Shown: positions 7,494 to 59,642 of the stretch, in pieces
Numbering within the stretch: position 1 is the stretch's first letter
How the letters are laid out: every line of letters begins with the position of its first letter
From: Candidatus Parcubacteria bacterium
Lineage (GTDB): Bacteria > Patescibacteriota > Minisyncoccia > Phycocordibacterales > JAKAEA01
Length of the DNA stretch: 64,000 nucleotides
NCBI GenBank assembly: GCA_019661945.1
Contig: JAIFWI010000001.1
Coordinates: 6,342-70,341, forward strand
Direction: 5' to 3'
Notes under the pieces: generated by a model
Told to the model about the DNA's origin: nothing
The model's database searches: none
What the model saw: only the letters and a program-made list of their open reading frames with translations
Position numbers and translations under genes: made by a program

Positions 7494-7507
7494 GACTTAA
7501 AAAACAA

Positions 7508-7538
7508 AACCCCGTACCGTAAGGTGCGGGGTTTTGTT
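7508..7538 (+). terminator. Intrinsic terminator (ccccgtaccg taagg tgcgggg + U-run)
   Basis: 10-bp GC stem with one G-U wobble, followed by TTTTGTT. Confidence 0.7.
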
Positions 7539-7564
7539 ATGGAGAGTTTTTTATTGACCGGATT

Positions 7565-7700
7565 TTATGGAATGATACACTGAGCATTGGACCTGAAACC
7601 AACGGAGGTGTGCGCCGGAAACAGCCGGGCCAGACTCTCTCCTGTAGGTGGATCACACAGGGCCCGATTGCATGATGCAGTCGGGCCCTGTTTACTTACA
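7565..7700 (+). ncRNA. Candidate small structured ncRNA (unclassified), ends in a 10-bp hairpin + U-run
   Basis: About 135-nt GC-rich (>55%) island between two terminators in AT-rich DNA; perfect stem cagggcccga...tcgggccctg followed by TTTAC; internal helices GUGUG/CACAC and CCGG/CCGG; no convincing ORF. SRP-RNA-like CCGGAA motif present but consensus not matched. Confidence 0.25.
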
Positions 7701-7749
7701 TCTGCTAATTTTGTTATATTTTTCACATTAGCTCTGCTATAATTAACAT

Positions 7750-7935
7750 ATGAAAAACACAATAATAATTGTTCTCGTTTTATTAGGAATTTATTGGTTG
7801 TTTGATCACACTGCTCCCTTGCCGCTTAATCATGCATCTTTTGGTTTGTATAACCATGGTGTTCATAGAATTATCGGCGTTGTCTTTTTGGCAGTAGCAG
7901 CATTCTTTACCTGGAAGTGGAAATCTAAAAGCTAG
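7750..7935 (+). CDS. Small hydrophobic protein (61 aa), 2 TM
   Basis: ORF with TATAAT 7 nt upstream of ATG (possible leaderless); hydrophobic segments; no homology recognised. Confidence 0.3.
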   Translation: MKNTIIIVLVLLGIYWLFDHTAPLPLNHASFGLYNHGVHRIIGVVFLAVAAFFTWKWKSKS

Positions 7936-13385: not shown

Positions 13386-13955
13386 ATGCAATATAACGAG
13401 AAAGAACTAATTGAAATGAGCCAACGTGGCAATAGTGAGGCTTTTGGCCGAATCTATGACCGTCACGTTAAGACTATATACGATTTCATCTTCTATAAGA
13501 CCCGCCACAGAGAAACGGCGGAGGACATCACCAGCCAGACATTTTTTAAGGCATTAAAAAATATCAGCTCGGTTGATGCCGATCGTTCAATACTTTCTTG
13601 GCTGTACAAAATTGCCCACAATAGTGTTCTCGACCACTATAGGACAACCCGTCACCAAGATGATATCGACGATTGCTATGATTTGTCAGATGATACCGAT
13701 GTGGTCGGTGAGCTCGATAATGCCGAGGAGGTTGAGCGGGTGAAGAAGTATCTTCATGCGCTCACGCCTCTTGAGCGGGACATTGTTATTATGCGAGTGT
13801 GGCAGGAACTTTCCTACAAGGAAATTGCAGATATTATCGGTAAGACTGAAGCCAATTCGAAAATGATTTTTTCCCGGACGCTCAAAAAGCTGCGCACGCT
13901 GATGCCTCTGGCCATGATGTTGTTATATATTTTTCATACATACTATGGAGCCTAA
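13386..13955 (+). CDS. ECF-type RNA polymerase sigma factor (sigma-70 regions 2 and 4)
   Basis: Region 2 FGRIYDRHVKTIYDFIFYKTRHRETAEDITSQTFFKAL; region 4 LTPLERDIVIMRVWQELSYKEIADIIGKTEANSKM. Confidence 0.85.
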   Translation: MQYNEKELIEMSQRGNSEAFGRIYDRHVKTIYDFIFYKTRHRETAEDITSQTFFKALKNISSVDADRSILSWLYKIAHNSVLDHYRTTRHQDDIDDCYDLSDDTDVVGELDNAEEVERVKKYLHALTPLERDIVIMRVWQELSYKEIADIIGKTEANSKMIFSRTLKKLRTLMPLAMMLLYIFHTYYGA

Positions 13956-15306
13956 TCTTCCTGAAAATTTTAAAGATATCGAAAAATTCTTACGTGAAGC
14001 TAAACCTGACACACATTTTAGTCCGGTTTTTGCTGCGCGCCTTCGAGATGAATTGGTAGTTAAAAAATCCTCATGGCTTTCGCCCTATGTTTCATTATTC
14101 GGAACTGGTTCATTTCAGGCCAGTTTAGCCGGAGCATTGGTAGCAATTATTTTTATTACACCGTTGACCTATTTAGCAACACGAGAACTATATGTCGGTA
14201 GTGATGCTGAAACCTATGTAAAAAATATTACCTCAGGTCTAAGTCTCAAGCAGCAAGTTAACAGCAAGGGTATGAATGCATTCGGTAAAATTTCATATAT
14301 TCAGCCTTCTGGCGAATCGACTCCGGCTATGAGTGCTGCTCCAACTTTAAATGCACAAGCAGCACCTGATCCTGCTGCACGTTCATTTGGTAAGGGAGGC
14401 GCTGCAACAAGCATGGTAGTTGATTATTCTTATACTGGTGATGATCTTAAGCTTGATACTGAAGAGGGTAAAGTATTTATGCGTGTTAAAAATACTGAGG
14501 CCGGCAAACAACTTGCAGAATTTATTAAAAAATCAAATTTCGGTTTAGTTGATATGCCGTCATTCTCATCGGTTGGACTTCAGAATATTCAGCTTTTTGA
14601 GGATAAGCCATTTGGGTATTCAATTAATGTAAACTTTGACGAAGGTAATATTTATATTGCTCCTGATTATCGAAAATGGGATGTATCACAAGAACGTGCA
14701 CCACTTTCTGCCTCACAACTGCCGGCAGATACAGATATCATTACTATTGCTGCTGATTTTATAAAACAGCATGGCATTGATGTTTCAACCTATGGCAAAC
14801 CAATTATTGAAAACAAAACAAATGAAGGTAATGTTATTAATGTAACCTATCCGCTTATTCTTGAGGATATGGATGTCTATGATGAAAGCGGCAATGCCTA
14901 TGGTCTTCATGTAGGTGTTGATCTTCTGCTCAAGCGTGTTGTTAGTGTCAGCGATTTAACATCTCAGGTATATGAAAGCTCAAATTATCCGCTTGAGACT
15001 AATGCTAAAAAAGTAATTTCTGCCGCAACAGGGGACTCAAAATCTGGTACGACTACAGAAACACTTGAATTAAAAACTCCAAAACGAGTGTTGATGCGTC
15101 ACTTTATATACTCAAATAAAGGAGTTGCAACAGAGCTTTATGTACCAGCATTACTCTTCCCCATAGAGCAGAAGAAGGGCATTGTGCAGTATCAAAAGAA
15201 CGTTGTAGTGCCTCTTATTAAAGATGCTTTAGCAAAAATGATCCAAGATACTGAAGTTCACGTTCTTGGTACAACTACATCAGCCGTCAATAATACCGAT
15301 TTGTAA
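13945..15306 (+). CDS. Putative anti-sigma factor (single-pass membrane protein with large extracytoplasmic domain)
   Basis: Start overlaps sigma gene end by 11 nt; about 50-aa cytoplasmic N-domain, one TM (ALVAIIFITPLTYL), 380-aa outside domain; position and topology typical of ECF anti-sigma. Confidence 0.5.
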   Translation: MEPNLPENFKDIEKFLREAKPDTHFSPVFAARLRDELVVKKSSWLSPYVSLFGTGSFQASLAGALVAIIFITPLTYLATRELYVGSDAETYVKNITSGLSLKQQVNSKGMNAFGKISYIQPSGESTPAMSAAPTLNAQAAPDPAARSFGKGGAATSMVVDYSYTGDDLKLDTEEGKVFMRVKNTEAGKQLAEFIKKSNFGLVDMPSFSSVGLQNIQLFEDKPFGYSINVNFDEGNIYIAPDYRKWDVSQERAPLSASQLPADTDIITIAADFIKQHGIDVSTYGKPIIENKTNEGNVINVTYPLILEDMDVYDESGNAYGLHVGVDLLLKRVVSVSDLTSQVYESSNYPLETNAKKVISAATGDSKSGTTTETLELKTPKRVLMRHFIYSNKGVATELYVPALLFPIEQKKGIVQYQKNVVVPLIKDALAKMIQDTEVHVLGTTTSAVNNTDL

Positions 15307-15347
15307 AGATGAAATAGGAAGCGGTCTGTAGTATACTAGCCGTATCA

Positions 15348-15944
15348 ATGAACAGGTTAGTTTACGGCGGTATCGGTATACTTCTATTGGCAGTTGGTAT
15401 CGGTCCTATACATTTAGTTGAAATTCAGGAGAAGGCTACTCTAAGCCACTCTGTCGCTATTTCAAAAGTCTCAGCTCAAGTTACAAAACCTCTACAACCC
15501 GCAGAGCCAAAGCGGCTTATTATTCCTGTACTTAACGTTAATGCCCCTATCCAATCTATGGGTCTTGATGAGGGCAAAATGGCCGTACCAAATAATTTTA
15601 GCGATATAGGCTGGTATAAGTACGGAACAATTCCGGGGAATAAGGGTAGTGCTGTAATGGGCGCTCATGTTGATAATGGTGGAAGTGTTCGAGGAGTATT
15701 TAAGTATCTCAAGGATGTAGCCCCTGGAGATGACATATATGTTACTGATACAGAAGGCACGACACGTCATTTTCGAGTTAGTGATCGAAAAGTATATCCC
15801 TATCAAACAAAAATCACGGATGAGGTTTTTTTACAGAATGATAAGGTTAGGCTTAATCTCATAACGTGTCACGGAAAATTTTTACCTAAGGAAAATACCT
15901 ATAATCAACGCCTTGTTGTCTTCGCAGAATTAGTGACGAGTTAA
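15348..15944 (+). CDS. Sortase (class E/F-like transpeptidase)
   Basis: N-term TM; catalytic His (GAHVD), LITC active-site Cys (NLITCHG), conserved Arg region downstream. Confidence 0.8.
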   Translation: MNRLVYGGIGILLLAVGIGPIHLVEIQEKATLSHSVAISKVSAQVTKPLQPAEPKRLIIPVLNVNAPIQSMGLDEGKMAVPNNFSDIGWYKYGTIPGNKGSAVMGAHVDNGGSVRGVFKYLKDVAPGDDIYVTDTEGTTRHFRVSDRKVYPYQTKITDEVFLQNDKVRLNLITCHGKFLPKENTYNQRLVVFAELVTS

Positions 15945-16012
15945 AAATATTAATGGTAGCTTAATGCTGAAGCCGTATAATTGAACTATTAATAGTTCAA
16001 TCAACAATCAAC

Positions 16013-16684
16013 ATGAGTTATTATCAAACTATTTTTCAAAATCGTACTGAAGCCGGATCCTATCTCGCCGAATATTTATTTTCATATAAAGATAAAAAAC
16101 CCTTGATACTCGGCATAGCACCTGAGGGTGTGCCGGTAGCCTCAAAAGCTGCAGAGATTCTTGAATCTCCGCTTGATGTTATTGTTGCGCGGACACTATT
16201 TGCTCCAGGTAATAAACATATAGTCTTAGGAGCAATTGCGGCAGGGGATGTAGTTGTTGTTGATCGATCTATTCAAATCTCACTTGGTCTCAGCGATAAT
16301 GATATGAATAAACTTATTGAAAGTGAACGGAAAGAAATGGCTGCGGACATGATTCATTATGGTAGTGGCTCGCATGTTGCTCGGGTATCATCGCCGCATA
16401 CACTTGTCGTGGTTGATGATGGCTTGGCTTCAAGTGTTACTATACGAGCTACCATTGAGGCTGCCAGAATTTTATACAATCCACAGCAACTAGTTTTTGC
16501 TTCACCGATTTGCGCATATGATACCTTGGAATCTATTAAATCAATTGTCGATGACATTGTTGCAGTCAACACTCCTAAGCATGTGTATTCGATAGGGAAT
16601 TGGTACTACGAATATGATCGAGTGTCAGAAAAAGATGTCAAAGAATATCTTAAATCTAAGGCGTCTAAATTTGTCTTTAGTTAG
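16013..16684 (+). CDS. Phosphoribosyltransferase-fold protein (COG1926-like predicted PRTase)
   Basis: FQNRTEAGSYLAEYL N-motif and PRPP-loop LVVVDDGLASSVT. Confidence 0.6.
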   Translation: MSYYQTIFQNRTEAGSYLAEYLFSYKDKKPLILGIAPEGVPVASKAAEILESPLDVIVARTLFAPGNKHIVLGAIAAGDVVVVDRSIQISLGLSDNDMNKLIESERKEMAADMIHYGSGSHVARVSSPHTLVVVDDGLASSVTIRATIEAARILYNPQQLVFASPICAYDTLESIKSIVDDIVAVNTPKHVYSIGNWYYEYDRVSEKDVKEYLKSKASKFVFS

Positions 16685-16750
16685 TTGATAAAAATTAAAA
16701 AAGATGTAATGTTCACTCTGGATATACCGTTCCTTTAACCGGAGGTTGTG

Positions 16751-18283
16751 ATGAAAGCTCTCGATTTAGCGCGGGCTGAAGCCTGCACTCAGTTGGGGGA
16801 TGTCATCTACGTTCCTCACCTGCCGATGACACAAGAGTGTTATCGGTCCTTGAAGCGGGTACGTAGACAGCCGAGCATGCAGACTCTTCTCGGTAATCGA
16901 CCATGGCATGTTGCATTTTCGGAGCTTATCGGGATGTATAGGGAGCACTTTACTGAAACTCAGAGTAACCCTGTCTGGTTCGAGCGGCTCGATCCTGTGC
17001 TCAGGCGTCATTTGAGCAGTTGGTATGGGTTGTTTGGGGATATCTACGAGCCGTTGTCTATAACCCCATGTGTTCCTTTGGCTGGCTTTGGGTTCACCGT
17101 ACTCGAAGAAGGTATTGCCGAAGATGTCGTCAGGTCTCTCGGGCTTTTCCGGCTTGGGGGAATTCGACAGCTTGGCTTTCTCCATACTCCTCGGGTGACG
17201 AGTGATGCCCTTCAGGCCTACATGCCGGTGTATTCTCACACACGATATCTCCATATTATGTGTGTCTATGCCCTAGCAAATCTCATGGCTGAGAACAACC
17301 ACCTAAGCGAGCTTGAAAAGAATACCTTGCTCGTGGCGGCCCTGACCCATGATGCTCGGACTCCTGCGGGAGGAGACAGTACCAAACGTATCAACCACAC
17401 CCTCTTTGATGAAGATGCCAGCTTTGAAGCTGTTTATAAGCTGCCTGGTTGGCCCGGACTTCGAGAGCGGTATGGTTTATGCGAGAAACTGCTGTTTCGA
17501 ACAATTATGGGCGAAGGGAAACTTGGCCGGCTTCTTGATCTTGCGGATAAGGCGGCCTACATTGCCTTCGATACTGCTCGCTTTCTGGATAGTGGGACTC
17601 CCTCAGCAGCTGTGTCGGAGATTCGTACTGTTCTCAATGAAGATTCCCTAGTCTGCGGACTATGGGATGCAGCTAATGTCGAAGGGGAACAGGTCATCAT
17701 CAGTGATCCGGAACGGCTCCACCGGTTTTTGAGGCTTCGAGCAGGAATGTTCAAGGGCCTCTACTACAATCCGGCCAGTCGCTTTCTGGAAGATACGCTG
17801 GCGCGAATGCTCATCAGCTATTTGTTGGAAAAGGGCGTAGTTACTCCCGGCACACTCCTGCAGATGGGTGATGGTCATCTCGAACAACTCATTGATCAAG
17901 TAACCGGCATTCCAGGGCTTATGGCCGGAATTGTAACCCACCAAGCAACCCGGGTTGAAACTTTTCAGACATTGTCTCAAGCTGAAGCACGGGAAGCTGA
18001 ACTCGCCTTAGACCAGGGAATCATGACACACATCGAGTCAATGTTGTGGTTAACCAAGTCAGGCGCTAAAAGTTTCTTAGTACGCGGTAAGAATAAGCAG
18101 GTGGCAACATTTGCTGAAGCTTATCCGGAACAGACAGTGAAAATTGAGGAAGGTTTGAAAGATATTCCGCCGGTGCGGCTGTATGCATTCTCAATCAGGC
18201 ACTCAGGTTTGCCGAACGAGATTGTCAGACGGCTACGGAAGAGGCGTGAAAAACGAATTAAGAATTACAAGCGGAGCCACTAA
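16751..18283 (+). CDS. HD-domain phosphohydrolase, dNTP-triphosphohydrolase (dGTPase/SAMHD1)-like; GC-rich
   Basis: H...HD...D motif order: YSHTRYLHIMCVYA, LVAALTHDARTPAGGD, LLDLADKAAYIAFD; about 57% GC vs ~38% flanks; GGAGG RBS before ATG 16751. Confidence 0.5.
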   Translation: MKALDLARAEACTQLGDVIYVPHLPMTQECYRSLKRVRRQPSMQTLLGNRPWHVAFSELIGMYREHFTETQSNPVWFERLDPVLRRHLSSWYGLFGDIYEPLSITPCVPLAGFGFTVLEEGIAEDVVRSLGLFRLGGIRQLGFLHTPRVTSDALQAYMPVYSHTRYLHIMCVYALANLMAENNHLSELEKNTLLVAALTHDARTPAGGDSTKRINHTLFDEDASFEAVYKLPGWPGLRERYGLCEKLLFRTIMGEGKLGRLLDLADKAAYIAFDTARFLDSGTPSAAVSEIRTVLNEDSLVCGLWDAANVEGEQVIISDPERLHRFLRLRAGMFKGLYYNPASRFLEDTLARMLISYLLEKGVVTPGTLLQMGDGHLEQLIDQVTGIPGLMAGIVTHQATRVETFQTLSQAEAREAELALDQGIMTHIESMLWLTKSGAKSFLVRGKNKQVATFAEAYPEQTVKIEEGLKDIPPVRLYAFSIRHSGLPNEIVRRLRKRREKRIKNYKRSH

Positions 18284-18376
18284 ATGGGGCTGCGCTTTTT
18301 TGTTGAGTTTCTTAAGCTTTTGTTCTATGCTTGAGTCAGGAACTAAACATTCACCTTCGGGTGGAAAGGAATTTCA

Positions 18377-18763
18377 ATGAAATTTCTCATTGCTGGCTTG
18401 GCCTTGTTCATGGTTGGCTGTACTACACCTAGTGTTTCAGATCAAAACTCCCGGAAAGAGCTTCTGGGAGAATCGCGGACAGTTTATCTTGAAGAAGAGC
18501 CTTTTCGGGTCATTGTGCACGCTCTGGGTTTGTCATTTCCAACAGCGGTAGCTCATGCCAGGGGTGTGGATGTTCATGGCAATCAGCTTTTTGTGGCTCT
18601 GAACCATAATATGGGCTGGAATAAGGGTGACTTTGTTGTGTGCAGCCCTATCTACATGGACAGAATGCTTCTCGACAAGTTTTTAAAATTTCTGAGTGAG
18701 AACAGCCAGAAAAAGCAAAAGAAAGACAAAAAGGAGGAAAAGAAAACCAAATCCCAAAGGTGA
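18377..18763 (+). CDS. Hypothetical lipoprotein with Lys-rich C-tail
   Basis: LALFMVGC lipobox; KKQKKDKKEEKKTKSQR tail. Confidence 0.45.
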   Translation: MKFLIAGLALFMVGCTTPSVSDQNSRKELLGESRTVYLEEEPFRVIVHALGLSFPTAVAHARGVDVHGNQLFVALNHNMGWNKGDFVVCSPIYMDRMLLDKFLKFLSENSQKKQKKDKKEEKKTKSQR

Positions 18764-18826: not shown

Positions 18827-20068
18827 TTGGATATGAGTACCAAGAAGTTTTTAATTACAACAACACTTGTAGTATTGCCAGCACTTTTGCTGATTGTATA
18901 TTCGCGATTTAGCACTGTTAAGGCCCAGAATGAAAGTGCATCCGAGTCATCACAATATAGTGAAGTATTTATGGCCCACCTCGATGGCAGTCAAGAAGTG
19001 CCGCCTATTTCAACCACAACAGCTATGGGCCATGCCGATATAAAAGTTAGACGAGACAATACTACTTCTTCAACTACTATTGAATACACCCTAGGCTTGC
19101 AAAACATTACTAATGTCACAGCGGCTCATTTCCACTGCGCAGCTCCAGGCCAGAATGGTCCGGTGATTGTGCCTATTTTATCTCACAGTGCAGGACAAGA
19201 TTATGCCTCAAGCTCGGTTTCAGGCACTATTACTTGGGCAGATGTGTTGCCGGCAGCAATGAATTGCAGTCCAAACATTCAAACTATGGAGCATTTTATT
19301 CAAGCTATGCGTGAAGGTAAAATCTATGTCAATGTTCACACAACAGAAAATCCCAATGGTGAAATCCGCGGTCAGGTTATGACAGGCAATTTGATGCCAA
19401 TGATGCCAAGCGCTACGTCGACGGCGACATCAACTATGCCGACGCCTACTCCAACACCCACACCAACTCCGAGCCCAACGCCAGTAGCGACTTCGACTGA
19501 TACAACAGCAACAACCACCACGCCATTTTCAACAGGCTTGCCAGGACATTATTTTGTCTTCGTGTCACCTGACTCATATTATAAAATGCAGGGCGGAGCA
19601 GTTTCATTTACAGGCACACACTTTTATCCTGGAGAAACTGTAACCATTCGGCGCGATGGAACTGTTGTGGGAACTGCTGTAGCCAATGCTTCGGGACAAT
19701 TTATGACAGGCAACGTAGATATCCCATATGCATCTGGTCAAAGAAGTTTCACCTTTATTGGTTCAGTCAGCAATATTTCATTTCCGGTTGGCATCTGGGT
19801 TGATGGTTCAAACCCATGGCTAAGCTTGAGCACCTATTACGCTGGAGATGCTGCACCTATCACTATTACTGGACATGGCTTTGGCAGCGGGGAAGAGGTC
19901 ACCGTTTGGTTTGATGGCATGAATCGCGGGATGGTCCTGACCTCACAAAATGGAGAGTTTAGCTTAACAACAGTAGTGCCGGATAATACCGCTGGACAAA
20001 AAACTGTTGAAGCCAAAGGCTCGAGGACTGGCGCTGTAGCTCAACAAAGTTTTAGTCAGGCTTTCTAA
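18827..20068 (+). CDS. Secreted CHRD-domain protein with Pro/Thr linker and C-terminal Ig-like beta domain
   Basis: CHRD signature: AHLDGSQEVPP...AAHFHCAAPGQNGPV...IYVNVHTTENPNGEIRGQV; TPTPTPTPTPSPTP linker. Confidence 0.7.
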   Translation: MDMSTKKFLITTTLVVLPALLLIVYSRFSTVKAQNESASESSQYSEVFMAHLDGSQEVPPISTTTAMGHADIKVRRDNTTSSTTIEYTLGLQNITNVTAAHFHCAAPGQNGPVIVPILSHSAGQDYASSSVSGTITWADVLPAAMNCSPNIQTMEHFIQAMREGKIYVNVHTTENPNGEIRGQVMTGNLMPMMPSATSTATSTMPTPTPTPTPTPSPTPVATSTDTTATTTTPFSTGLPGHYFVFVSPDSYYKMQGGAVSFTGTHFYPGETVTIRRDGTVVGTAVANASGQFMTGNVDIPYASGQRSFTFIGSVSNISFPVGIWVDGSNPWLSLSTYYAGDAAPITITGHGFGSGEEVTVWFDGMNRGMVLTSQNGEFSLTTVVPDNTAGQKTVEAKGSRTGAVAQQSFSQAF

Positions 20069-20121
20069 TTTTTAAAAAGTATTATAAGATGCTTATGTAC
20101 TTATAAATTAAATATGTACTT

Positions 20122-20538
20122 ATGAATCGAAATGCATTTATTGCGGTTGTAGTTATCCTTGTTCTTATTATCGCTGGAGTGGTCCTCGCAAAATCAATGG
20201 GTCAAGACCAAACCGTGGTTGAAAATCCTACACCTACACCTCTAGCTACTGCCACCTCAATTCCTTCTACAGCTTCAAGTACAGCAAAAACATATCCTCT
20301 AACCGAAGTTGCTAAGCACAATAAGAGCACAGACTGCTGGTTGGCTATTAGCGGCAAGGTCTATGATGTTACTAAATTTATAGCAAGCGGTATGCATCCA
20401 GGCGGTGAGGCAATTTTGCAAGGCTGCGGTAAAGATGCTACAACACTTTTTGAGACACGACCTATGGGTTCAGGCACACCACACTCAGCTCAGGCTCATG
20501 CTGCTTTAGTCAACTTCTATATTGGTGATTTGAAGTAA
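20122..20538 (+). CDS. Membrane-anchored cytochrome b5-like heme-binding domain protein
   Basis: TEVAKHNKSTDCWLAISGKVYDVTKFIASGMHPGGEAILQGCGKDATTLFE = Cyt-b5 fold HPGG motif; N-term TM. Confidence 0.7.
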   Translation: MNRNAFIAVVVILVLIIAGVVLAKSMGQDQTVVENPTPTPLATATSIPSTASSTAKTYPLTEVAKHNKSTDCWLAISGKVYDVTKFIASGMHPGGEAILQGCGKDATTLFETRPMGSGTPHSAQAHAALVNFYIGDLK

Positions 20539-20556
20539 ACTTCGTATAATAACTCC

Positions 20557-21882
20557 ATGAAAGTAATTCAGCGCGAACGCGGGAAGATACTATTCCTAAT
20601 CATTTTCCTATTTATTCCGCTTGGTATTTGGTTGGGTGGAGAAGGACAGCAATTTCTGTTTACCAATCTCTATACCAGCTTAACTACTATCGGCAAAATT
20701 GCCGGCATCATTGGCGTAGGTTTCTTTGCTGGCAATATGTTTTTGTCTGGACGATATAAAGTTTTGGATAGACTCTTTCACGGTCTCGATCGAGTGTATC
20801 TTTTTCATCGACAGACGGGCATTCGAGCATTTGTGCTGCTGACTATTCATCTTTTAGCTTTGACCTTCAGAAATCTGGCATTTTCATTTCAGGCTGTTAT
20901 TGATTTTACGACGAGCTTTAGTAACATTCCGGTCCTTATCGGCAGGGTAGGGTATTACGGTTTTTTAGTTCTTATCATCATTACCCTTTTTGTTCGCATG
21001 AAATATGAGCGGTTGAAAAGACTGCACCAATTTATGGGCGTCTTTTTGTTTTTCGGCGGCTTACATGTCTATCTCATTCCATCAGATGTTTCGGTTAATA
21101 TGTATCTGCGCTGGTATATTTTAGGTATTGTTGCTTTGGCCCTGATAAGTTATTCCTGGCGAGTATTATTGCGGCGCTGGATTATTCAGAGAACTATTGC
21201 TGACGTTATTGCAGTTAATAAGCTTGGCGACACCGTGATAGAAGTAGTCATGAAACCCCAAAAGGAGAAAGTAAATTTTATTCCAGGCCAATTTATTTTT
21301 GTAAAATTTAAACAACCTGGTTTCCCATATGAAGATCATCCATTTTCACTGACGGCTTCAACAGAAGAGCCAACCTTAAGAATCTCGGCAAAAGCCTTAG
21401 GAGATTTTACAAAAAAGCTGCCCGAATTAAAGCCTGGCGCAGAAGCTCACATTCAGGGACCATTTGGTGGCTTTAGTTTCTTAAAATCAGAAAATAAAAA
21501 ACAAATTTGGATTGCCGGTGGTATTGGCATTACGCCATTTATGAGTATGGCTCGGTCATTGCGCGATAGGGTAGAGAAGGATCCTACATTAAAAGAATAT
21601 GACATTACACTTTTCTACTCAGTTAAAAATGAGCCTGAACATATTTATGCAAAAGAGCTGGAAGAGATTTCACAAAAATTACCTAATTTTCATTTCATTC
21701 CTTGGGTAACTGATCGAGATGGCTTTATTAATGCCGCTAGGGTTCATCAAAAAATAAAAGTCACAGACGAAACTATTTTCATTTGCGGCCCAAAGCCAAT
21801 GTTGAATGCCCTCCGCGACCAATTCCAAATTCTCGGTATTTCCAGAAGCCGTATTCATTTTGAATTATTTAAATTGCTCTAG
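20557..21882 (+). CDS. Ferric-reductase/NOX-family membrane oxidoreductase (ferric reductase TM domain + FAD + NAD(P)-binding)
   Basis: 6-TM N-domain with paired His (HRQTGIRAFVLLTIHLLAL; HQFMGVFLFFGGLHVYL); HPFS FAD motif; GGIGITPFMSM NAD(P) motif; CGP near C-term. Confidence 0.75.
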   Translation: MKVIQRERGKILFLIIFLFIPLGIWLGGEGQQFLFTNLYTSLTTIGKIAGIIGVGFFAGNMFLSGRYKVLDRLFHGLDRVYLFHRQTGIRAFVLLTIHLLALTFRNLAFSFQAVIDFTTSFSNIPVLIGRVGYYGFLVLIIITLFVRMKYERLKRLHQFMGVFLFFGGLHVYLIPSDVSVNMYLRWYILGIVALALISYSWRVLLRRWIIQRTIADVIAVNKLGDTVIEVVMKPQKEKVNFIPGQFIFVKFKQPGFPYEDHPFSLTASTEEPTLRISAKALGDFTKKLPELKPGAEAHIQGPFGGFSFLKSENKKQIWIAGGIGITPFMSMARSLRDRVEKDPTLKEYDITLFYSVKNEPEHIYAKELEEISQKLPNFHFIPWVTDRDGFINAARVHQKIKVTDETIFICGPKPMLNALRDQFQILGISRSRIHFELFKLL

Positions 21883-21954: not shown

Positions 21955-22494
21955 ATGCCAAGTGCCGAAGATTTGAGGATGGCTCAGCAGGCAGCTGCAC
22001 TCATCGATCTGCTTGATCGGAGTGTTTTCCCAAGCAATAAGGGGAAAGTCTATGTTCTGACGGAAGAAGAACCACCAGATGAAAATGTCGAATTGAGATC
22101 ATCAGGTTCAGGGCAAGCAATGTACATTCTCTGGGCCAGTGGTATCAGTCGATACTTCGCAGAACTCATGGAAGGTCGATCTGGGATAGCCTGGGAAGCC
22201 TATGTCTGGAGTTATGCGGCACAGTTTGTTCGCAGACGATTCCAGATCGATGGCATACCTACGCTGCTACGTCCCACTGATGTTCGAATGTTTCCCGAGC
22301 TTGTGGATATGAGTAGGGATGTTGAGGAAACGCTGAAGGCAACAAGTCCACATGACTTTGATCAACGCTACGATGCAGTAATAGTTGAGATTTTGACAGC
22401 AAACGAGGTAATGGATGGCAGGGATACTCTTGAACATCTGGCAGACCTTGTCAGGGTCTCACCCACAACACTAGCTCATTTCGCGGCACCGTAG
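21955..22494 (+). CDS. Hypothetical protein (GC-rich)
   Basis: 179 aa; CAGGAGG RBS 6 nt upstream; no family recognised. Confidence 0.45.
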   Translation: MPSAEDLRMAQQAAALIDLLDRSVFPSNKGKVYVLTEEEPPDENVELRSSGSGQAMYILWASGISRYFAELMEGRSGIAWEAYVWSYAAQFVRRRFQIDGIPTLLRPTDVRMFPELVDMSRDVEETLKATSPHDFDQRYDAVIVEILTANEVMDGRDTLEHLADLVRVSPTTLAHFAAP

Positions 22495-22516
22495 AAACCG
22501 GTGCTTTTTAATACAT

Positions 22517-22930
22517 TCATTGAGTTCCATCCCGATTCTTTTTCAAAAATTCGGCATAGCATTCGCTGACACGTTTGACCATTTCGCTCGGGATAGCATT
22601 TACTTTGATGTAGAAGCCAATGGTAGATGGCAATTTCTTTACTTCATCGCCTAAATGTCCAATTTGAGCATTCGTTAAGTAAATGATAGGAATAGATTTC
22701 GTATGCTTATTTGCTTGGAGCATGGTTGCCAGACTGACTCCATTCAAATCAGAGGTACTAAATAGCAAGTCCATTAAGATAAGATCTGGCGATTTATGCC
22801 GTACCTCCGAGACAATATTCTGGCTCGGAGTTGTGATGATAGAAACCTTAAAGCCTGCATCAGAAAACTTCTTAGAATACATGGCATCAAATGTAGTGTC
22901 ATCATCAATGATTAAAATTTTTGTTGACAT
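22517..22930 (-). CDS. Stand-alone response-regulator receiver (CheY-like REC) domain protein
   Basis: ILIIDDD acidic pocket, phospho-acceptor D in LILMDLLF, conserved K downstream; 137 aa, no output domain. Confidence 0.7.
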   Translation of the reverse strand: MSTKILIIDDDTTFDAMYSKKFSDAGFKVSIITTPSQNIVSEVRHKSPDLILMDLLFSTSDLNGVSLATMLQANKHTKSIPIIYLTNAQIGHLGDEVKKLPSTIGFYIKVNAIPSEMVKRVSECYAEFLKKNRDGTQ

Positions 22931-24023: not shown

Positions 24024-25916
24024 CTATTCAAGGAGAGTTGCAATAAGATCTTCGACATTGCCGACGGCCACTCCGGCGTATGAATCAGCCGCGCCGTAAT
24101 ACATATAGAGCATGTTCTTTCGAATTACGGCGCCGCAAGGGAAGACCACGTTTCCAACTTGGCCTTCCCTTTCATATTTTTCTTTTGGTTCAAAAATAAA
24201 ATCAGAAGATCGGGCAATAACTTTTGTTGGATCTTTTTTATCAAGAAGAGCCAATCCTGCACGATATATGCCATCATCAGAGATTCCATGATATACAAAG
24301 AGCCAGCCATATTCGGTTTCAAGTGGCGGACAAGAAAGGCCGACTTTTTTACTATCCCACATACCTGGGCGCGGTTTCATAATGACAACATGATCAGTTA
24401 CTCGGGTCGGATTTATAAGATCAACAAAGCTGGCCCAAATTTCGTGATTAATACGATGAATAAAAAGATGTTTGCGGCCCTTTTTAACGGGCATAATGCA
24501 GGCATCCTTATCATCGGTGCCGACAGGAGAAATAAGAATGGATGGTTCCCAGCGCCAGCGTCGGGCGAGAAAATCATCTGCGGTGATACTGGTCATGGCT
24601 ACAGCCGGCGGTTCAATGCCATTATAGGCTGTATAGGTCATATAAATTCGGTTGCCGACAAGTACGGCCCGGGCATCTTCACAGCCAGAATTGCCATTCG
24701 GCACGCCTTTTCTTTCAAATGTTTCATGCGGAGTATAGATCGGATCTTTAAGCCGCTCGCTAATCGTCACACCGTCATTTGATACGGCATAACCGATAGT
24801 CGAAGTATTATCTTCGGACATTGCTCGATATAAGAGGTGAACCTGGCCATGTAGTTCAAAGGCAGCTGGATTAAACACAGCTCTATTTTCCCAACTGTTT
24901 TTTGTTGGTTTCAAAATAGGATTTTTGGCTGAGCGGAGCAGAATCTTCTCTCGCCCACCGAGCATACTGAAAATAAGATGCGATAGGGTGACTTCAGTGA
25001 TAGAAACAGTCGTATCAGTACTGCCATAAAAAATACGTAAGGTGTCCCCTTCTATAACCGCGCCAGAAGGGAAAATAGTATTTGGTACGGTGCCATATTT
25101 TTCGTATGATTCTTCCGGCACAAACATTGGTGATGAAGTTCTGCCGATTATTTTTTTAGGATCTTTGAGGTCGAGCAATACGGCTTCAATACCAAACACT
25201 TTATCCGGGCTAAAATATTTTTGAATATGAGCGTAGATCAAAAGCCAGCCATACTTAGTTTTAAGTGGTACTGCACCAACTTCGATTTGGTCGTCATCTT
25301 TACGCTTCAGGTTAACAATATGGCTATCAATATTTTTGTACCATTTATTCCAGAACTCGGCTGACCACATCTCCTCTTCCCTCTCGCATTGAGCAATAGC
25401 AATTTTTGACGGTGGTAAATCTGAATTTGCCGTTAAAATCATCGTGAATTTGCCGTTAATTTTTTCAGGAAATAAAGCCATAGCTTTTGAATTGAATGGT
25501 GTCACCAAATGCTTAGCGGTAATTGTTTCCAAATCATTGCTGACAGCTACGCCAATTTTTATACCTTCTGCATTAAACGGAAAATGAGACAGTGCCGTAT
25601 AAAATGTATAATATTTGCCATTCAAATATGTTACCCGAGGATCTTCACAGCCATAGCGTTCCCATTCTTTTTCTGGAGTGATATAGGCGCTGCGATTGCC
25701 GAAATGAATGCCGTCTTTGCTGGTAGCTTTGCAAATTTGTGACATTGAGAATTGGCTATTCTCAAATCGCTCAGGTGTTGACATTGCTCGATACAACAAA
25801 TGGGTCGTTGATCGAATTTGGATTGGGCAGCCATTAAAAACAGCATAAGCCTCCCAAGGATGGTCTTGGACTGGGCTCAATATTGGATTGTGGACTGAAC
25901 GACGGACGACAAACAT
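24024..25916 (-). CDS. Tandem-domain GH130/DUF377-like beta-propeller glycosidase/phosphorylase
   Basis: Two repeats of NPA...LLYRAMS...IGYA.S.DG...GCEDPRV/GCEDARA...Y.TY motif pattern; 630 aa. Confidence 0.6.
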   Translation of the reverse strand: MFVVRRSVHNPILSPVQDHPWEAYAVFNGCPIQIRSTTHLLYRAMSTPERFENSQFSMSQICKATSKDGIHFGNRSAYITPEKEWERYGCEDPRVTYLNGKYYTFYTALSHFPFNAEGIKIGVAVSNDLETITAKHLVTPFNSKAMALFPEKINGKFTMILTANSDLPPSKIAIAQCEREEEMWSAEFWNKWYKNIDSHIVNLKRKDDDQIEVGAVPLKTKYGWLLIYAHIQKYFSPDKVFGIEAVLLDLKDPKKIIGRTSSPMFVPEESYEKYGTVPNTIFPSGAVIEGDTLRIFYGSTDTTVSITEVTLSHLIFSMLGGREKILLRSAKNPILKPTKNSWENRAVFNPAAFELHGQVHLLYRAMSEDNTSTIGYAVSNDGVTISERLKDPIYTPHETFERKGVPNGNSGCEDARAVLVGNRIYMTYTAYNGIEPPAVAMTSITADDFLARRWRWEPSILISPVGTDDKDACIMPVKKGRKHLFIHRINHEIWASFVDLINPTRVTDHVVIMKPRPGMWDSKKVGLSCPPLETEYGWLFVYHGISDDGIYRAGLALLDKKDPTKVIARSSDFIFEPKEKYEREGQVGNVVFPCGAVIRKNMLYMYYGAADSYAGVAVGNVEDLIATLLE

Positions 25917-25917
25917 A

Positions 25918-27783
25918 TTAAATAATTAAGGGTTGTTTAGGATTAAGTTCAATAGTAGCATCTTCTTTCACTTTCTCTAAAAATGAATCAAGCGGTGATG
26001 AGGCGACACATACGACCTTGTCTCCTCCGCCGTAATATACATACAGCTCATCATCTTTTATGATCGCTCCAGATGCGTACACCACTCCAGGCTTACCATC
26101 ATTTTCATAATGCATATCAGGACACAAAATGGGATGTGATGTTCGGTATAAAATTTTCTCAGGGTTATCAGTATCTAAAATCATTGCGCCGAGTTTGTAT
26201 TTGTGCGGATCAAAAACATCATTGGCATGATACAACAAGAGCCAGCCTGCCGGTGTTTTTATCGGTGGAGGCCCTGCGCCGCGAACTTTATTATCCCAAT
26301 GTTGCATTCGCCCGCCGATTGGCGGTTTACTTTTTATGAATGTTTTTCCATTAAACTCGGACAATGAATCGGCGTAGTGAATAGAAATTTGAGGTGTAAT
26401 GCTGTGGAGCACAGCAAATTTGCCTTTAACTTTTTCTGGGAACAGAACCCAATTCTTGTGGATTTCGCCGGGTGGAGAAATAAATTGTGGTCGCTTCCAT
26501 TTCCATATTTCATTATTCAAATCTTTTTGACTGATTGAGGTTAAGGCAATACGCATTGAATTCCAGCCGCCGAAAGCTAAATACGTAACATAAATCCGCT
26601 TGCCGATTTTAACTGCCCGTGGATCTTCACAGCCTGCCCAGCCACCGCCAGAAGCGTATTCAGCCGGATTATAGGTTCGTGAGCCAGCATCTATTTCAGG
26701 TCCTGGCAGAGCGTGACCATCATGCGGCTCATATACAGGCTCATCTCGTCGAGTGAAATCAAGGCCATCTTTACTTGAGGCATAACCCAGGACTGATAAA
26801 CCGCTTTTGCCGATAGCTCGGTACAAGAGGTGAATTTTGCCGTCGTCGTATATTGCCGCCGGATTAAAGACAGCTTCGTTCTCCCATTCATTTTCGCTAT
26901 GAGGAGCAATAATAGGATTTTTGGGATGACGCTTAAGATAAGGTTTCTCTTTTGGCGGACTGATTGCAGTTGTAAACGGTGTGGCCAAGACTGCCGTCAG
27001 GATTGAGCCATCTTCAGTCGCCCAAAAGAGTGTGGTCCTGCCTTCGAGTGTAATAAGACCTATTGGATAGGCTCGGTGCTTGCCCGTAACCTTGACCATG
27101 GCTTTCCAGACAGGAATATCAGAACGCCAAATAATTTTGCCCGGCTCGTCTCGTGAAAAGAGTACTGCTCCTGCCTGTATCATATCAAGGGTGCCATTTG
27201 AAATGGTTGCATCATAAAACATGAGGATTCCTCTTTTGGTTATGGTTGCCCCAATAATTTTCATGTCTCCCGAATCAAAGGCATAATTGCGAGATGTGTA
27301 TAAGAGTCCAGACTCTTTTGACCACTTCTTGAGATCTTTTGACTTGGCATGGGTAACGAAAAGTCCACCGAGGTACAAAATATAATTTGTTTTTGTTGTG
27401 GCATTGACTACGAGTGCGGCATCATTAGTTGAAATATCAAGTTCAGATTTCACTGACCACATGTACAAATCTTTTGAGGTGGCAATAATTAAATTCTTTT
27501 TGTGTTTTTCAGTACGAATATAGGTGGCAATCCAACCATCAACACTTTTAGCAAATTTAAAGTGGGAACATATTTTAGGATTCTCCTTTTTATCAGCAGT
27601 TATATAAATAGTAACTTCTTTGCTGATGGTTTTATAATGAGCTTCATCAGTGCTCCAAATAATTAAAAATTTTGAACTGACCGTTTTAATTTGCTTAACA
27701 AAAATACCAGTCAAACCATGATGCGACAAAACGCCGAGCGGCACTACATTTCCCAGTTTGTCTTTTATTTTTATGGGAGTCAT
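25918..27783 (-). CDS. Tandem-domain GH130/DUF377-like beta-propeller glycosidase/phosphorylase (paralog of downstream gene)
   Basis: VFNPAAIYDDGKIHLLYRAIGKSGLSVLGYASSKDG...GCEDPRAVKIGKRIYVTY; 621 aa, adjacent paralog. Confidence 0.6.
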   Translation of the reverse strand: MTPIKIKDKLGNVVPLGVLSHHGLTGIFVKQIKTVSSKFLIIWSTDEAHYKTISKEVTIYITADKKENPKICSHFKFAKSVDGWIATYIRTEKHKKNLIIATSKDLYMWSVKSELDISTNDAALVVNATTKTNYILYLGGLFVTHAKSKDLKKWSKESGLLYTSRNYAFDSGDMKIIGATITKRGILMFYDATISNGTLDMIQAGAVLFSRDEPGKIIWRSDIPVWKAMVKVTGKHRAYPIGLITLEGRTTLFWATEDGSILTAVLATPFTTAISPPKEKPYLKRHPKNPIIAPHSENEWENEAVFNPAAIYDDGKIHLLYRAIGKSGLSVLGYASSKDGLDFTRRDEPVYEPHDGHALPGPEIDAGSRTYNPAEYASGGGWAGCEDPRAVKIGKRIYVTYLAFGGWNSMRIALTSISQKDLNNEIWKWKRPQFISPPGEIHKNWVLFPEKVKGKFAVLHSITPQISIHYADSLSEFNGKTFIKSKPPIGGRMQHWDNKVRGAGPPPIKTPAGWLLLYHANDVFDPHKYKLGAMILDTDNPEKILYRTSHPILCPDMHYENDGKPGVVYASGAIIKDDELYVYYGGGDKVVCVASSPLDSFLEKVKEDATIELNPKQPLII

Positions 27784-59503: not shown

Positions 59504-59642
59504 GCGAGTCCTTTCCCACGACTAATGTGTCGTGTATGCCTTGGTTTGTGAGGGAGAACGTTCTAAAGTTCATGTATATCATACTTGCATAAAATTTGCT
59601 AGTAAATAAAAAAACCGCACCACAACGTAGTACGGAATCAAT

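What the first reader, a model, noticed from the sequence alone, without database searches (positions are those of the whole stretch)
18827..21882. CHRD-domain protein + cytochrome b5-domain protein + NOX/ferric-reductase-type flavocytochrome cluster
Three consecutive plus-strand genes encode a secreted CHRD domain protein, a membrane-anchored Cyt-b5 heme domain and a 6-TM ferric-reductase domain fused to FAD/NAD(P)-binding domains (HPFS, GGIGITPF). Together they could form a trans-membrane electron-transfer route (NAD(P)H to FAD to b-hemes to b5/CHRD partner) in an organism that otherwise looks fermentative and small-genomed. Bacterial NOX-family enzymes with separate b5 partners are little characterised, and the function of CHRD is unknown.
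Basis: partly seen in the sequence, partly recalled or inferred. Interest (0 to 1): 0.5.

Follow-up and report, generated by a model that had tools for sequence, protein, structure and literature searches.

The report
Membrane NAD(P)H reductase with b5 partner
A tiny symbiotic (Parcubacteria) bacterium encodes a membrane enzyme of the bacterial NADPH-oxidase type next to a surface-tethered cytochrome b5 that is probably its electron acceptor; the pairing is common in such microbes, has been noted before and is untested, while the third gene (CHRD) is only a local neighbour.

Summary
Three same-strand genes encode a secreted or anchored CHRD protein, a membrane-anchored cytochrome b5, and a 6-TM ferric-reductase domain fused to FAD and NAD(P)H domains. 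The last is a full-length homologue of Streptococcus pneumoniae SpNOX. All four heme histidines and the HPFS, GIGITP and CGP motifs are invariant.

The neighbourhood test splits the proposed trio. b5 or a b5-like gene lies directly beside the NOX-like gene in 48-53 of 80 species-level loci from CPR bacteria and DPANN archaea. It is the only recurrent neighbour. CHRD occurs only in the window's own clade (5 of 8 loci), and 43 distant CHRD loci have no NOX or b5 nearby.

Most likely mechanism: NAD(P)H to FAD, to two b-hemes, to extracytoplasmic b5, to an unknown outside acceptor. This fits the SpNOX structural papers, which predict an unidentified protein acceptor.

The ferric-reductase/b5 colocalisation in CPR was already reported in a 2021 preprint, so this is a new member of a known but uncharacterised kind. 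CHRD is a Cu,Zn-SOD-like barrel with three invariant histidines fused to adhesin-like Ig domains. A redox role for it is possible but unsupported. Interest is moderate.

The parts
20557..21882 (+). SpNOX-like flavocytochrome (441 aa). The N-terminal 6-TM ferric-reductase domain (about aa 1-210, nt 20557-21186) has heme ligands H84/H157 (inner) and H98/H170 (outer). The C-terminal FNR-type dehydrogenase domain (aa ~211-441) has HPFSL 261, GGIGITPF 321, CGP 410 and a C-terminal HFELF.
   Evidence: Pfam. Full-length phmmer match to the SpNOX structures 8qt6/8qq7, E 1e-31, aa 59-425. Invariant columns in the 16-sequence alignment. Motifs and hydrophobic segments. Inner/outer heme assignment is by homology to SpNOX H69/H129 and H83/H142.
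20122..20538 (+). Membrane-anchored (or secreted) classical His/His cytochrome b5 (138 aa). TM/signal segment aa ~5-24, a Pro/Thr/Ser-rich linker aa ~25-55, and the b5 domain aa 61-138 with axial H92 (HPGG) and H121 (PHS) and a Cys pair C71/C102.
   Evidence: Pfam Cyt-b5 E 1e-20. Best PDB match is 1cxy, the Ectothiorhodospira cytochrome b558, E 8e-15, with the same two Cys aligned. Residue positions and conservation of anchor, linker, DCW...HPGG...CGKD...HS in NOX-adjacent b5 ORFs. Homologues cover the N-terminal anchor, whereas NCBI's start (113 aa) omits it.
18833..20068 (+). CHRD surface protein (411 aa from ATG 18833; 413 aa from TTG 18827). In numbering from the TTG start: an N-terminal signal/anchor helix, then the CHRD domain (aa 48-184) with invariant H101, H103 and H171. 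A disordered Pro/Thr linker follows (about aa 188-241). The C-terminus holds two Ig-like domains (about aa 242-413). This is a clade-specific neighbour, not a core part of the module.
   Evidence: Pfam CHRD E 2e-27. AF2 model with pLDDT 80 and domain boundaries. Foldseek hits of the whole model are adhesin Ig tandems. The CHRD-only model has pLDDT 92, and all its top PDB hits are Cu,Zn-SOD, best E 7.5e-3 and TM 0.45. Invariant residues. Clade distribution.
13386..16684 (+). Conserved upstream synteny block of this Parcubacteria clade: ECF-type sigma factor (13386-13955), a ~450-530-aa anti-sigma-like membrane protein (13945-15306), sortase (15348-15944) and a phosphoribosyltransferase (16013-16684). 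This may be a shared envelope regulon, or it may be inherited gene order only.
   Evidence: Homologues lie in the same order upstream of the NOX gene in L001, L081, L082, L083, L084 and L085. Sortase and Pribosyltran by Pfam.
21955..22505 (+). Downstream same-strand ORF of 179 aa with no family match, followed by a terminator-like hairpin (22485-22505). This is the possible end of the transcription unit. The ORF is not conserved in relatives.
   Evidence: ORF. No Pfam or NCBIfam hit. No homologue in 86 related loci. Hairpin plus T-run; terminator-like sites overall are at background frequency.

Best explanation
The core is a two-gene module.

The 441-aa protein is a member of the SpNOX-like bacterial branch of the NOX/ferric-reductase superfamily. 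Cytoplasmic NAD(P)H reduces FAD in the C-terminal FNR-type domain. Single electrons then cross the membrane through two bis-His b-hemes: inner H84/H157 and outer H98/H170.

The product of the adjacent gene is a cytochrome b5 held on the outer face of the membrane by an N-terminal anchor and a flexible Pro/Thr linker. It is the direct acceptor at the exposed outer heme. The pair would therefore work as a trans-membrane NAD(P)H:cytochrome-b5 reductase.

Reduced b5 then passes electrons to an external acceptor that is not identified here. Candidates are O2, Fe(III) or other oxidants, or an extracytoplasmic reductase or repair enzyme. The net effect is export of reducing equivalents, and regeneration of NAD(P)+, in an organism without a respiratory chain.

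The CHRD protein is a Cu,Zn-SOD-fold domain on adhesin-like Ig domains. It is a surface protein that shares the neighbourhood only in this clade and is not required for the module.

Shown: domains, motifs, heme ligands, homology to SpNOX, adjacency statistics, and the anchor and Cys pair of b5. Inferred: topology, electron flow to b5, and the terminal acceptor.
For: 1. Full-length homology to SpNOX, E 1e-31. All four heme His and the FAD and NAD(P)H motifs are invariant.

2. b5 or b5-like genes are the only recurrent neighbour family in 80 species-level loci with NOX identity of 31-64%. They are adjacent and co-directional, usually overlapping or within 10 nt, in 48 of 80 loci, or 53 of 80 with the Cys-rich b5-like variant. 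My rough chance expectation is under 1 locus.

3. 56 of 58 adjacent b5 ORFs have an N-terminal hydrophobic anchor and a 24-150-aa linker. The two Cys shared with E. vacuolata b558 (1cxy) are conserved. I read this as an extracytoplasmic disulfide, from my recollection that b558 is periplasmic and disulfide-bonded.

4. The partner type tracks the NOX tree. b5 runs across CPR and DPANN. A Cys-rich b5-like protein is found in one subclade. ApbE plus a small C-terminal '...VTRAS' protein is found in a DPANN subclade, and cupredoxin-like proteins in Actinomycetota.

5. A natural fusion, P0392, consists of FRD, DH, a seventh TM helix and a CxxCH cytochrome c domain.

6. Literature. The SpNOX outer heme is solvent-exposed and no O2-reducing centre was found. 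SpNOX reduces cytochrome c directly and anaerobically faster than O2 or Fe(III) (124.7 vs 48 vs 3.6 per min). [quoted passage not shown]

7. The DH domain also matches NADH-cytochrome b5 reductases (2eix, E 7e-12; 7rom).
Against: - There is no biochemical evidence for any member of this subfamily.
- From the b5 side the link is not exclusive. 0 of 5 close b5 homologues on long contigs are next to a full NOX gene.
- In the window's own clade, b5 is missing beside NOX in L001, L083, L084, L085 and L086.
- A 2021 survey found b5 within 10 kb of PF01794 genes in only 185 of 1427 CPR genomes.
- The terminal acceptor is unknown.
- CPR bacteria usually cannot make heme (my own knowledge; not testable in a 64-kb window), so three heme sites imply heme scavenging.
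- No complex model could be computed.
- Operon structure is inferred from spacing only. Promoter and terminator scans were at background level.
Confidence: 0.62

Rival explanations
1. This is a genuine ROS-generating system. The NOX-like enzyme, with or without b5, reduces O2 to superoxide outside the cell. The SOD-fold CHRD protein binds copper through its three invariant His and converts or handles the superoxide. The result is an H2O2-producing or self-protecting surface system used against hosts or competitors.
For: - SpNOX consumes O2 and was first described as a superoxide producer.
- CHRD is SOD-like. The chordin CHRD crystal structure shows this (PMC13382577), and all top PDB hits of the CHRD model here are Cu,Zn-SODs.
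- Bacterial CHRD domains keep an invariant HxH in strand 4 and an H in strand 7. hhalign places the HxH on SOD1 H46/H48.
- CHRD is fused to Sod_Cu or cupredoxin domains in other bacteria: P0140, P0141, P0146, P0150.
- CHRD lies within a few genes of NOX in 5 of 8 clade loci. It stays directly upstream of NOX even where b5 is absent (L001, L084).
Against: - CHRD is absent from the other 79 genome loci, and no NOX or b5 is found in 43 CHRD loci.
- The hhalign match is weak (E 0.058) and Foldseek TM is only ~0.45.
- No counterpart of the bridging His63 (CHRD has GPV where SOD1 has GPH), and by my reading no Zn-site or electrostatic loop.
- Chordin CHRD domains bind no metal.
- The SpNOX papers doubt that O2 is the physiological acceptor.
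- The Ig tandem resembles adhesins.
- The shared location can be explained by inherited synteny with the sigma/sortase block.
Confidence: 0.12
2. This is an assimilatory metal or heme acquisition system. Like eukaryotic FRE/FRO reductases and some 'MsrQ-like' bacterial systems, the module reduces extracellular Fe(III), or heme-iron or Cu(II), for uptake. b5 would act as the surface reductase or as a heme-binding receptor in a heme-auxotrophic symbiont.
For: - Family name and precedent. MsrQ-like proteins with NAD-binding domains are clustered with VIT1 iron transporters in 153 clusters (PMC8238504).
- SpNOX shows some ferric reductase activity.
- The organism needs external heme for three heme sites (inference).
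Against: - No iron, heme or copper transporter recurs next to the gene in 86 loci.
- SpNOX ferric reductase activity is very poor and was judged non-physiological (kcat 0.05 per s).
- b5 has the classical bis-His site of an electron carrier.
Confidence: 0.1
3. This is an electron supply for extracytoplasmic repair or detoxification enzymes, analogous to MsrQ-MsrP. b5 would relay electrons to a surface reductase encoded elsewhere in the genome, such as a methionine-sulfoxide reductase. This is a specific version of the best explanation with a named end point.
For: In the Woesearchaeota locus L130, a lipoprotein b5 that is 68% identical to the window's lies between desulfoferrodoxin, rubrerythrin and FUR genes on one side and several related genes on the other. 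These are a lipoprotein Oxidored_molyb (MsrP-like) gene, MsrB, MsrA and a stand-alone DH domain with the same GGIGITPFMSM motif. A 73-aa 2-TM protein with H-x13-H is also present. The E. coli MsrQ (FRD) to MsrP precedent is cited.
Against: - This rests on a single locus.
- No Mo-enzyme or Msr gene is found near the NOX gene in the window or in the 86 related loci.
- CPR genomes commonly lack molybdopterin synthesis (my own knowledge).
Confidence: 0.12

Closest known systems
SpNOX (Streptococcus pneumoniae NOX; PDB 8qq7, 8qt6)
   Same: Same length class and architecture: a 6-TM FRD with two bis-His hemes plus an FNR-type DH domain, aligned over aa 59-425 at E 1e-31. The HPFS, GGIGITPF and CGP motifs and the C-terminal aromatic are shared. 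No regulatory domains.
   Different: The aligned region differs by gaps, the largest a ~14-residue deletion in SpNOX in the TM3-TM4 outer loop. The host is CPR, not Firmicutes. The window gene has a dedicated b5 gene next to it, whereas the physiological acceptor of SpNOX is unknown.
pFre + cytb5-domain gene clusters of CPR bacteria (bioRxiv 10.1101/2021.11.17.468889)
   Same: The same kind of pairing: a PF01794 gene with a PF00173 gene, all products membrane-anchored, in CPR, with function stated as unknown.
   Different: - The preprint centres on MAPR-like, Tyr-ligated cytb5MY proteins and their two-component systems. The window's b5 is the classical His/His type, and only a lone response regulator lies nearby on the opposite strand.
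- The gene order here is b5 then NOX, which is restricted to the window's clade and L002.
- The preprint did not connect the reductase to SpNOX.
- The preprint reported no such pairing outside CPR. Here it is also seen in DPANN loci L042 and L068.
MsrQ-MsrP and flavinylation-associated 'MsrQ-like' systems (Méheust et al. 2021, PMC8238504)
   Same: An FRD membrane cytochrome, often fused to an NAD-binding domain, feeds an extracytoplasmic redox protein. The choice of partner is modular.
   Different: No MsrP, ApbE or FMN-binding gene was found among the ORFs scanned between 15.3 and 23.4 kb of the window. The partner is a heme protein. The ApbE-type variant does occur in a DPANN subclade of the same family.
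Microsomal NADH-cytochrome b5 reductase / cytochrome b5 pair
   Same: An FNR-type flavoprotein reduces a membrane-tethered b5. The DH domain matches b5 reductases 2eix and 7rom.
   Different: In the microsomal pair both proteins sit on the same side of the membrane. Here two trans-membrane hemes are interposed and b5 is predicted to be outside the cell.
Chordin CHRD domains / Cu,Zn superoxide dismutase fold
   Same: The Pfam CHRD match is strong. The predicted 8-stranded Greek-key barrel finds Cu,Zn-SODs as its best PDB matches, as shown crystallographically for chordin.
   Different: There is a single CHRD domain rather than four, fused to two Ig-like domains. Bacterial members keep three invariant His that chordin is reported to lack. 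There are no Zn-site residues and no demonstrated metal.

Membership tests
Bacterial NOX / FRD-FNR flavocytochrome (criteria of Hajjar et al. 2017, PMC5676040) | FAD motif H[PSA]F[TS][LIMV] | tested here: met
   HPFSL at aa 261. HPF is invariant in 16 homologues.
Bacterial NOX / FRD-FNR flavocytochrome (criteria of Hajjar et al. 2017, PMC5676040) | [quoted passage not shown] | tested here: met
   GIGITP at aa 322, and CGP at aa 410.
Bacterial NOX / FRD-FNR flavocytochrome (criteria of Hajjar et al. 2017, PMC5676040) | Two bis-histidyl pairs (His-x12-14-His) in two different TM helices, and about six TM helices | tested here: met
   H84-x13-H98 and H157-x12-H170 lie in the third and fifth of six hydrophobic segments. 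They are invariant and align to the SpNOX heme ligands.
Bacterial NOX / FRD-FNR flavocytochrome (criteria of Hajjar et al. 2017, PMC5676040) | NAD(P)H-dependent superoxide production, heme b558 spectrum | not testable with these tools
   This needs expression and spectroscopy.
Eukaryote-type NOX with a dedicated O2-reducing centre | A conserved His four residues after the outer-heme TM3 His, plus a partner Arg near the outer heme | tested here: not met
   The sequence after H98 is L-L-A-L, with no His at +4. The +4 rule is from my own knowledge of the NOX2 and NOX5 structures. SpNOX also lacks this centre.
Classical cytochrome b5 (PF00173, His/His) | b5 domain match above the Pfam threshold | tested here: met
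   74 bits against a cut-off of 23.7. PDB b5 and b558 matches reach E 8e-15.
Classical cytochrome b5 (PF00173, His/His) | Both axial histidines (HPGG His and the second His) | tested here: met
   H92 in HPGG and H121 in PHS. The first is conserved in at least 90% and the second in at least 75% of domains from NOX-adjacent b5 ORFs.
CPR pFre/cytb5 cluster (bioRxiv 10.1101/2021.11.17.468889) | PF01794 gene and PF00173 gene colocalised in a CPR genome | tested here: met
   The genes are adjacent with an 18-nt gap. The NCBI name of the identical protein is Candidatus Parcubacteria.
CPR pFre/cytb5 cluster (bioRxiv 10.1101/2021.11.17.468889) | MAPR-like cytb5MY (Tyr-ligated) gene and a two-component system in the cluster | tested here: not met
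   There is only one b5, of the classical His/His type. Only a lone response-regulator gene is present, on the opposite strand at 22517-22930, and no kinase was found in the scanned neighbours.
MsrPQ / flavinylation-associated MsrQ-like system | Oxidored_molyb (MsrP), or ApbE plus an FMN-binding gene, next to the FRD gene | tested here: not met
   No such domain was found in the ten ORFs scanned between 15348 and 23403.
CHRD domain (PF07452) | Profile match and conserved E-x-P ... HxH ... YxNxH ... GEIRGQ motifs | tested here: met
   96.8 bits against a cut-off of 24.1. The invariant columns include H61, H63 and H131 in domain numbering.
Cu,Zn superoxide dismutase | Greek-key barrel fold | tested here: met
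   The CHRD-only AF2 model has pLDDT 92. All its top Foldseek PDB hits are Cu,Zn-SODs, although weak (E 7.5e-3, TM 0.45).
Cu,Zn superoxide dismutase | Full set of Cu ligands (4 His, including the bridging His) and Zn ligands | tested here: inconclusive
   HxH aligns to SOD1 H46/H48 with a weak hhalign score (E 0.058). A third invariant His lies in strand 7, like SOD1 H120 (this is inference). There is no counterpart of H63 (CHRD has GPV where SOD1 has GPH).

The most novel reading that the evidence does not exclude
The NOX-like/b5 pair is the core of a minimal heme-based extracellular electron-export route. It would let non-respiring CPR bacteria and DPANN archaea discharge NAD(P)H onto outside acceptors such as O2, metals or the host surface. 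Tethered b5 domains would act as the relay across the wall, extended to an eight-b5 'wire' in one Saccharibacterium (L028). In the window's clade, the SOD-fold CHRD protein would be a copper-binding terminal partner. If true, this would give SpNOX-type enzymes their missing physiological acceptor and give bacterial CHRD domains their first function.
Probability: 0.15. Interest if true: 0.8.

Novelty: new member of a known kind. Interest (0 to 1): 0.45.

Why it matters
Two structural studies of SpNOX in 2024 ended with the same open question. [quoted passage not shown]

In CPR and DPANN genomes, the closest relatives of this window's enzyme usually carry a tethered extracytoplasmic cytochrome b5 gene right beside them. 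Other subclades swap in a b5-like, flavinylated, cupredoxin-like or fused cytochrome c partner. This gives a concrete, testable candidate: express the pair and measure NAD(P)H-to-b5 electron transfer.

It also bears on how ultra-small symbionts without respiratory chains balance redox or cope with oxygen.

The value of this particular window is modest. The pairing was already noted in a preprint, and the CHRD link, the only new element, is weakly supported.

Tried and rejected
- Three-gene conservation. I searched 80 genome loci for CHRD and found it only in L001. I then scanned metagenome contigs with the CHRD protein. All 43 loci were distant (25-43% identity) and none had NOX or b5. CHRD as a general partner is rejected.
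- b5-NOX gene fusions. None of the 120 best b5 homologues listed is a fusion; all are 113-195-aa single-domain proteins. Among longer NOX homologues, P0351 has only a low-complexity N-terminal extension. P0392 turned out to carry cytochrome c, not b5.
- Foldseek with the full-length CHRD model was swamped by Ig-tandem adhesins. A domain-only model was needed.
- hhalign of CHRD against human SOD1 gave only E 0.058. I use it as a lead, not as proof.
- Promoter and terminator scans over 18.2-22.6 kb were at shuffle background. Only the hairpin at 22485-22505 is worth noting.
- Rfam found nothing in the region, and only one tRNA in the whole window.
- The hhalign run of the Cys-rich family against b5 is circular, because jackhmmer had already merged the two sets. 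Only the jackhmmer recruitment itself is used.
- A NOX+b5 complex model was not attempted. The structure tool takes single chains, and paired sequences from loci are not admissible.
- The downstream ORF179, the response regulator and the upstream HD and lipoprotein genes were considered as parts of the system. They were dropped because none has a homologue in 86 related loci.

Full report
**1. What is there**

The three ORFs exist as described. Pfam assigns the following:
- CHRD (aa 48-184, E 2e-27) to 18827-20068.
- Cyt-b5 (aa 61-138, E 1e-20) to 20122-20538.
- Ferric_reduct, FAD_binding_8 and NAD_binding_1 to 20557-21882.

NCBIfam gives only sub-threshold FNR-family matches for the third protein. 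Proteins identical to all three are in NCBI under 'Candidatus Parcubacteria bacterium', on a 94.8-kb contig.

NCBI starts the CHRD gene at the ATG two codons downstream. It starts the b5 gene at an internal Met, which removes the membrane anchor. Homologues cover the longer b5 N-terminus, so the 138-aa form is preferred.

The gaps are 53 nt (CHRD to b5) and 18 nt (b5 to NOX). A terminator-like hairpin follows the next, unconserved ORF at 22485-22505.

**2. The reductase**

It aligns over almost its full length with the solved structures of S. pneumoniae SpNOX (8qt6/8qq7, E 1e-31).

In an alignment of 16 homologues of 35-63% identity, these residues are invariant: H84, H98, H157, H170, HPF 261-263, G321, G322, G324, P327, C410/P412 and the C-terminal H434/E436/F438.

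There are six hydrophobic segments. All sequence filters used to define bacterial NOX (Hajjar 2017) are met.

By homology with SpNOX (H69/H129 inner, H83/H142 outer), H84/H157 hold the inner heme and H98/H170 the outer heme. No His follows H98 at +4, so the eukaryotic O2-reducing centre is not evident, as in SpNOX.

The family is large. There are 1035 representatives (50% identity clusters) at E<=1e-30 and 4211 at E<=1e-10.

**3. Neighbourhood test**

They come from many CPR lineages, DPANN archaea and Actinomycetota, with NOX identity of 31-64%.

An all-against-all clustering of their ORFs gave one recurrent neighbour family besides antisense shadows: cytochrome b5.

b5 was found in 38 loci by direct phmmer with the window's b5 domain and in 48 with an iterated HMM. 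It is almost always immediately downstream, co-directional, and overlapping or within ~10 nt.

Five further loci carry a Cys-rich, membrane-anchored protein with no Pfam match. When used as a jackhmmer seed, it recruits canonical b5 domains and keeps both His positions. That makes 53 of 80.

If a ~1000-gene genome has one to three b5 genes, fewer than one adjacent case would be expected in 80 loci (my estimate).

56 of 58 adjacent b5 ORFs have an N-terminal hydrophobic segment and a 24-150-aa linker. The DCW/CGKD cysteine pair of E. vacuolata b558 is conserved. Together these point to an extracytoplasmic, tethered b5.

**4. Partner swapping**

On a neighbour-joining tree of the reductases, the partner type follows the clades:
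- b5 is found throughout CPR and in two archaeal loci (L042, L068). L042 is flanked by an aIF5B-type gene.
- The b5-like variant is found in a Shapirobacteria/Parcubacteria group.
- ApbE plus a small membrane protein ending in ...VTRAS is found in a DPANN group.
- Borderline cupredoxin-like secreted proteins are found in two Actinomycetota loci.

One homologue, P0392, is a natural fusion of FRD, DH, an extra TM helix and a CxxCH cytochrome c domain.

So the general design appears to be an SpNOX-like electron exporter plus an exchangeable outside one-electron carrier.

**5. CHRD**

CHRD is not part of that general design.

Among the 80 genome loci it occurs only in L001. Contigs of closer relatives (54-67% identity) show the following:
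- CHRD-b5-NOX in L082.
- CHRD-NOX without b5 in L084 and L001.
- CHRD four genes upstream in L085.
- Only the C-terminal Ig part in L081 and L086.
- Neither in L083.

The whole block is embedded in a clade-specific synteny of transglycosylase, ECF sigma, anti-sigma-like protein, sortase and phosphoribosyltransferase. Inherited gene order is therefore a sufficient explanation. In the reverse direction, 43 CHRD loci from metagenomes contain no NOX or b5.

Structurally, the protein is an N-terminal helix, a CHRD barrel, a disordered Pro/Thr linker and two Ig-like domains resembling bacterial adhesins.

The CHRD domain alone models at pLDDT 92, and its best PDB matches are all Cu,Zn-SODs, although weak. 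This agrees with the 2026 crystal structure of chordin CHRD domains.

Bacterial CHRD domains keep an invariant HxH (strand 4) and H (strand 7). hhalign puts the HxH on SOD1 H46/H48 at E 0.058. Some CHRD proteins are fused to Sod_Cu or cupredoxin domains. A copper or redox role is thus conceivable but unproven.

**6. Literature**

The colocalisation of putative ferric reductases with cytochrome b5-domain genes in CPR was reported in a 2021 preprint. It found PF01794 in 1427 of 7645 CPR genomes, 185 of them with PF00173 within 10 kb. It reported none outside CPR and gave no function.

Méheust et al. described 'MsrQ-like' FRD proteins with NAD-binding domains as modular extracytosolic electron-transfer systems with flavinylated partners.

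The two SpNOX structure papers state that the outer heme is exposed and that no O2 site was found. They also report that cytochrome c is reduced directly, and that a protein acceptor probably exists.

No paper in the searched library links these observations.

**7. Caveats**

- From the b5 side the association is loose. Five of five close b5 homologues on long contigs are not next to a full NOX gene.
- One of those five, L130 from a Woesearchaeote, places a lipoprotein b5 in an oxidative-stress and methionine-sulfoxide-repair cluster. That cluster also holds an MsrP-like lipoprotein, a stand-alone DH domain and a 2-TM H-x13-H protein. This hints at one possible end use.
- Several loci in the window's own clade lack b5 beside NOX.
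- Heme supply, topology, operon structure and the terminal acceptor are all inferred.

**8. Verdict**

The window holds a typical member of an already noticed but uncharacterised CPR/DPANN module: an SpNOX-like reductase plus a tethered cytochrome b5. It differs in having an unusual gene order and a clade-specific SOD-fold/adhesin-like neighbour.

Noticed in passing
L028:7763-11389 (+), uncultured Saccharibacteria contig CAZBGU010000001.1: A 1209-aa membrane-anchored protein with eight tandem Pfam Cyt-b5 domains (E 3.6e-138). It lies just downstream of the NOX gene and a single-domain b5 gene. It may be a poly-b5 electron relay.
   Followed up: partly
L130:1709-6477 (Woesearchaeota GCA_016935175.1): An oxidative-stress cluster. 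It runs FUR, rubrerythrin, glutaredoxin, desulfoferrodoxin, then a lipoprotein b5 68% identical to the window's and a 73-aa 2-TM protein with H-x13-H. Next come a lipoprotein Oxidored_molyb (MsrP-like), MsrB, MsrA and a stand-alone 240-aa DH domain with GGIGITPFMSM. It looks like a split NOX-like chain feeding Met-sulfoxide repair.
   Followed up: partly
P0392 (592 aa, from the search of protein representatives): A natural fusion of the NOX-like core with a seventh TM helix and a C-terminal CxxCH cytochrome c domain.
   Followed up: partly
L052:5070-7640, L053:4684-7128, L077:2030-2395 (DPANN archaea): The NOX homologue is flanked by ApbE (E 1e-49; L052 and L053) and by a small membrane-anchored protein whose C-terminus is ...VTRAS in all three loci. 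This may be a minimal flavinylation substrate.
   Followed up: partly
L069:5305-5880 and 7300-8016; L071:5318-5941 and 7353-8051; L016, L032, L048: A Pfam-less, Cys-rich b5-like family (CLYIxxGKVYEKGT..PH...PCGTDVT..IP..H..YLDPNY..IC) followed by Pro/Thr linkers. In L069 and L071 it lies on both sides of the NOX gene.
   Followed up: partly
L037, L038, L039, L056, L059, L060, L080 (Saccharibacteria), about 1.4-1.9 kb downstream of NOX: ~830-aa membrane-anchored proteins with a C-terminal b5-like domain (iterated-HMM match; three of the seven scanned against Pfam, no Cyt-b5 hit) and weak PKD- or DUF5979-like matches in two of them. A DUF4352-like gene lies between in at least L056. This may match the multi-b5 'ancestral operon' of the 2021 preprint.
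   Followed up: no
L057:3762-4940, L070:3161-4450 (Actinomycetota): Secreted ~400-aa proteins with a borderline plastocyanin/azurin-type copper-binding match (20-21 bits) directly downstream of the NOX homologue.
   Followed up: no
window 16748-18763: A 511-aa weak HD-domain protein and a 128-aa lipoprotein-like ORF interrupt the otherwise conserved sigma-sortase-PRTase-CHRD synteny. Neither has a homologue in related loci. The 16-18 kb stretch has higher GC (0.47 against ~0.40), so this is probably an insertion.
   Followed up: partly
window 20122-20196: The NCBI annotation of the identical b5 protein (113 aa) starts at an internal Met and drops the N-terminal membrane anchor, which homologues conserve.
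   Followed up: yes
window 37512-41354 (+) and 58079-60824 (-): GC-rich islands (0.50-0.53 against ~0.40). One encodes a large single-chain FGAR amidotransferase (PurL, 1280 aa). The other encodes an MGS/amidohydrolase protein and a DHO_dh-like protein. Nucleotide-synthesis genes of this kind are unusual for a CPR genome and may have been acquired horizontally.
   Followed up: no
window 24024-27783 (-): Two adjacent ~620-630-aa proteins with Glyco_hydro_130 matches (two stretches in one, one in the other): mannoside-phosphorylase-type enzymes.
   Followed up: no
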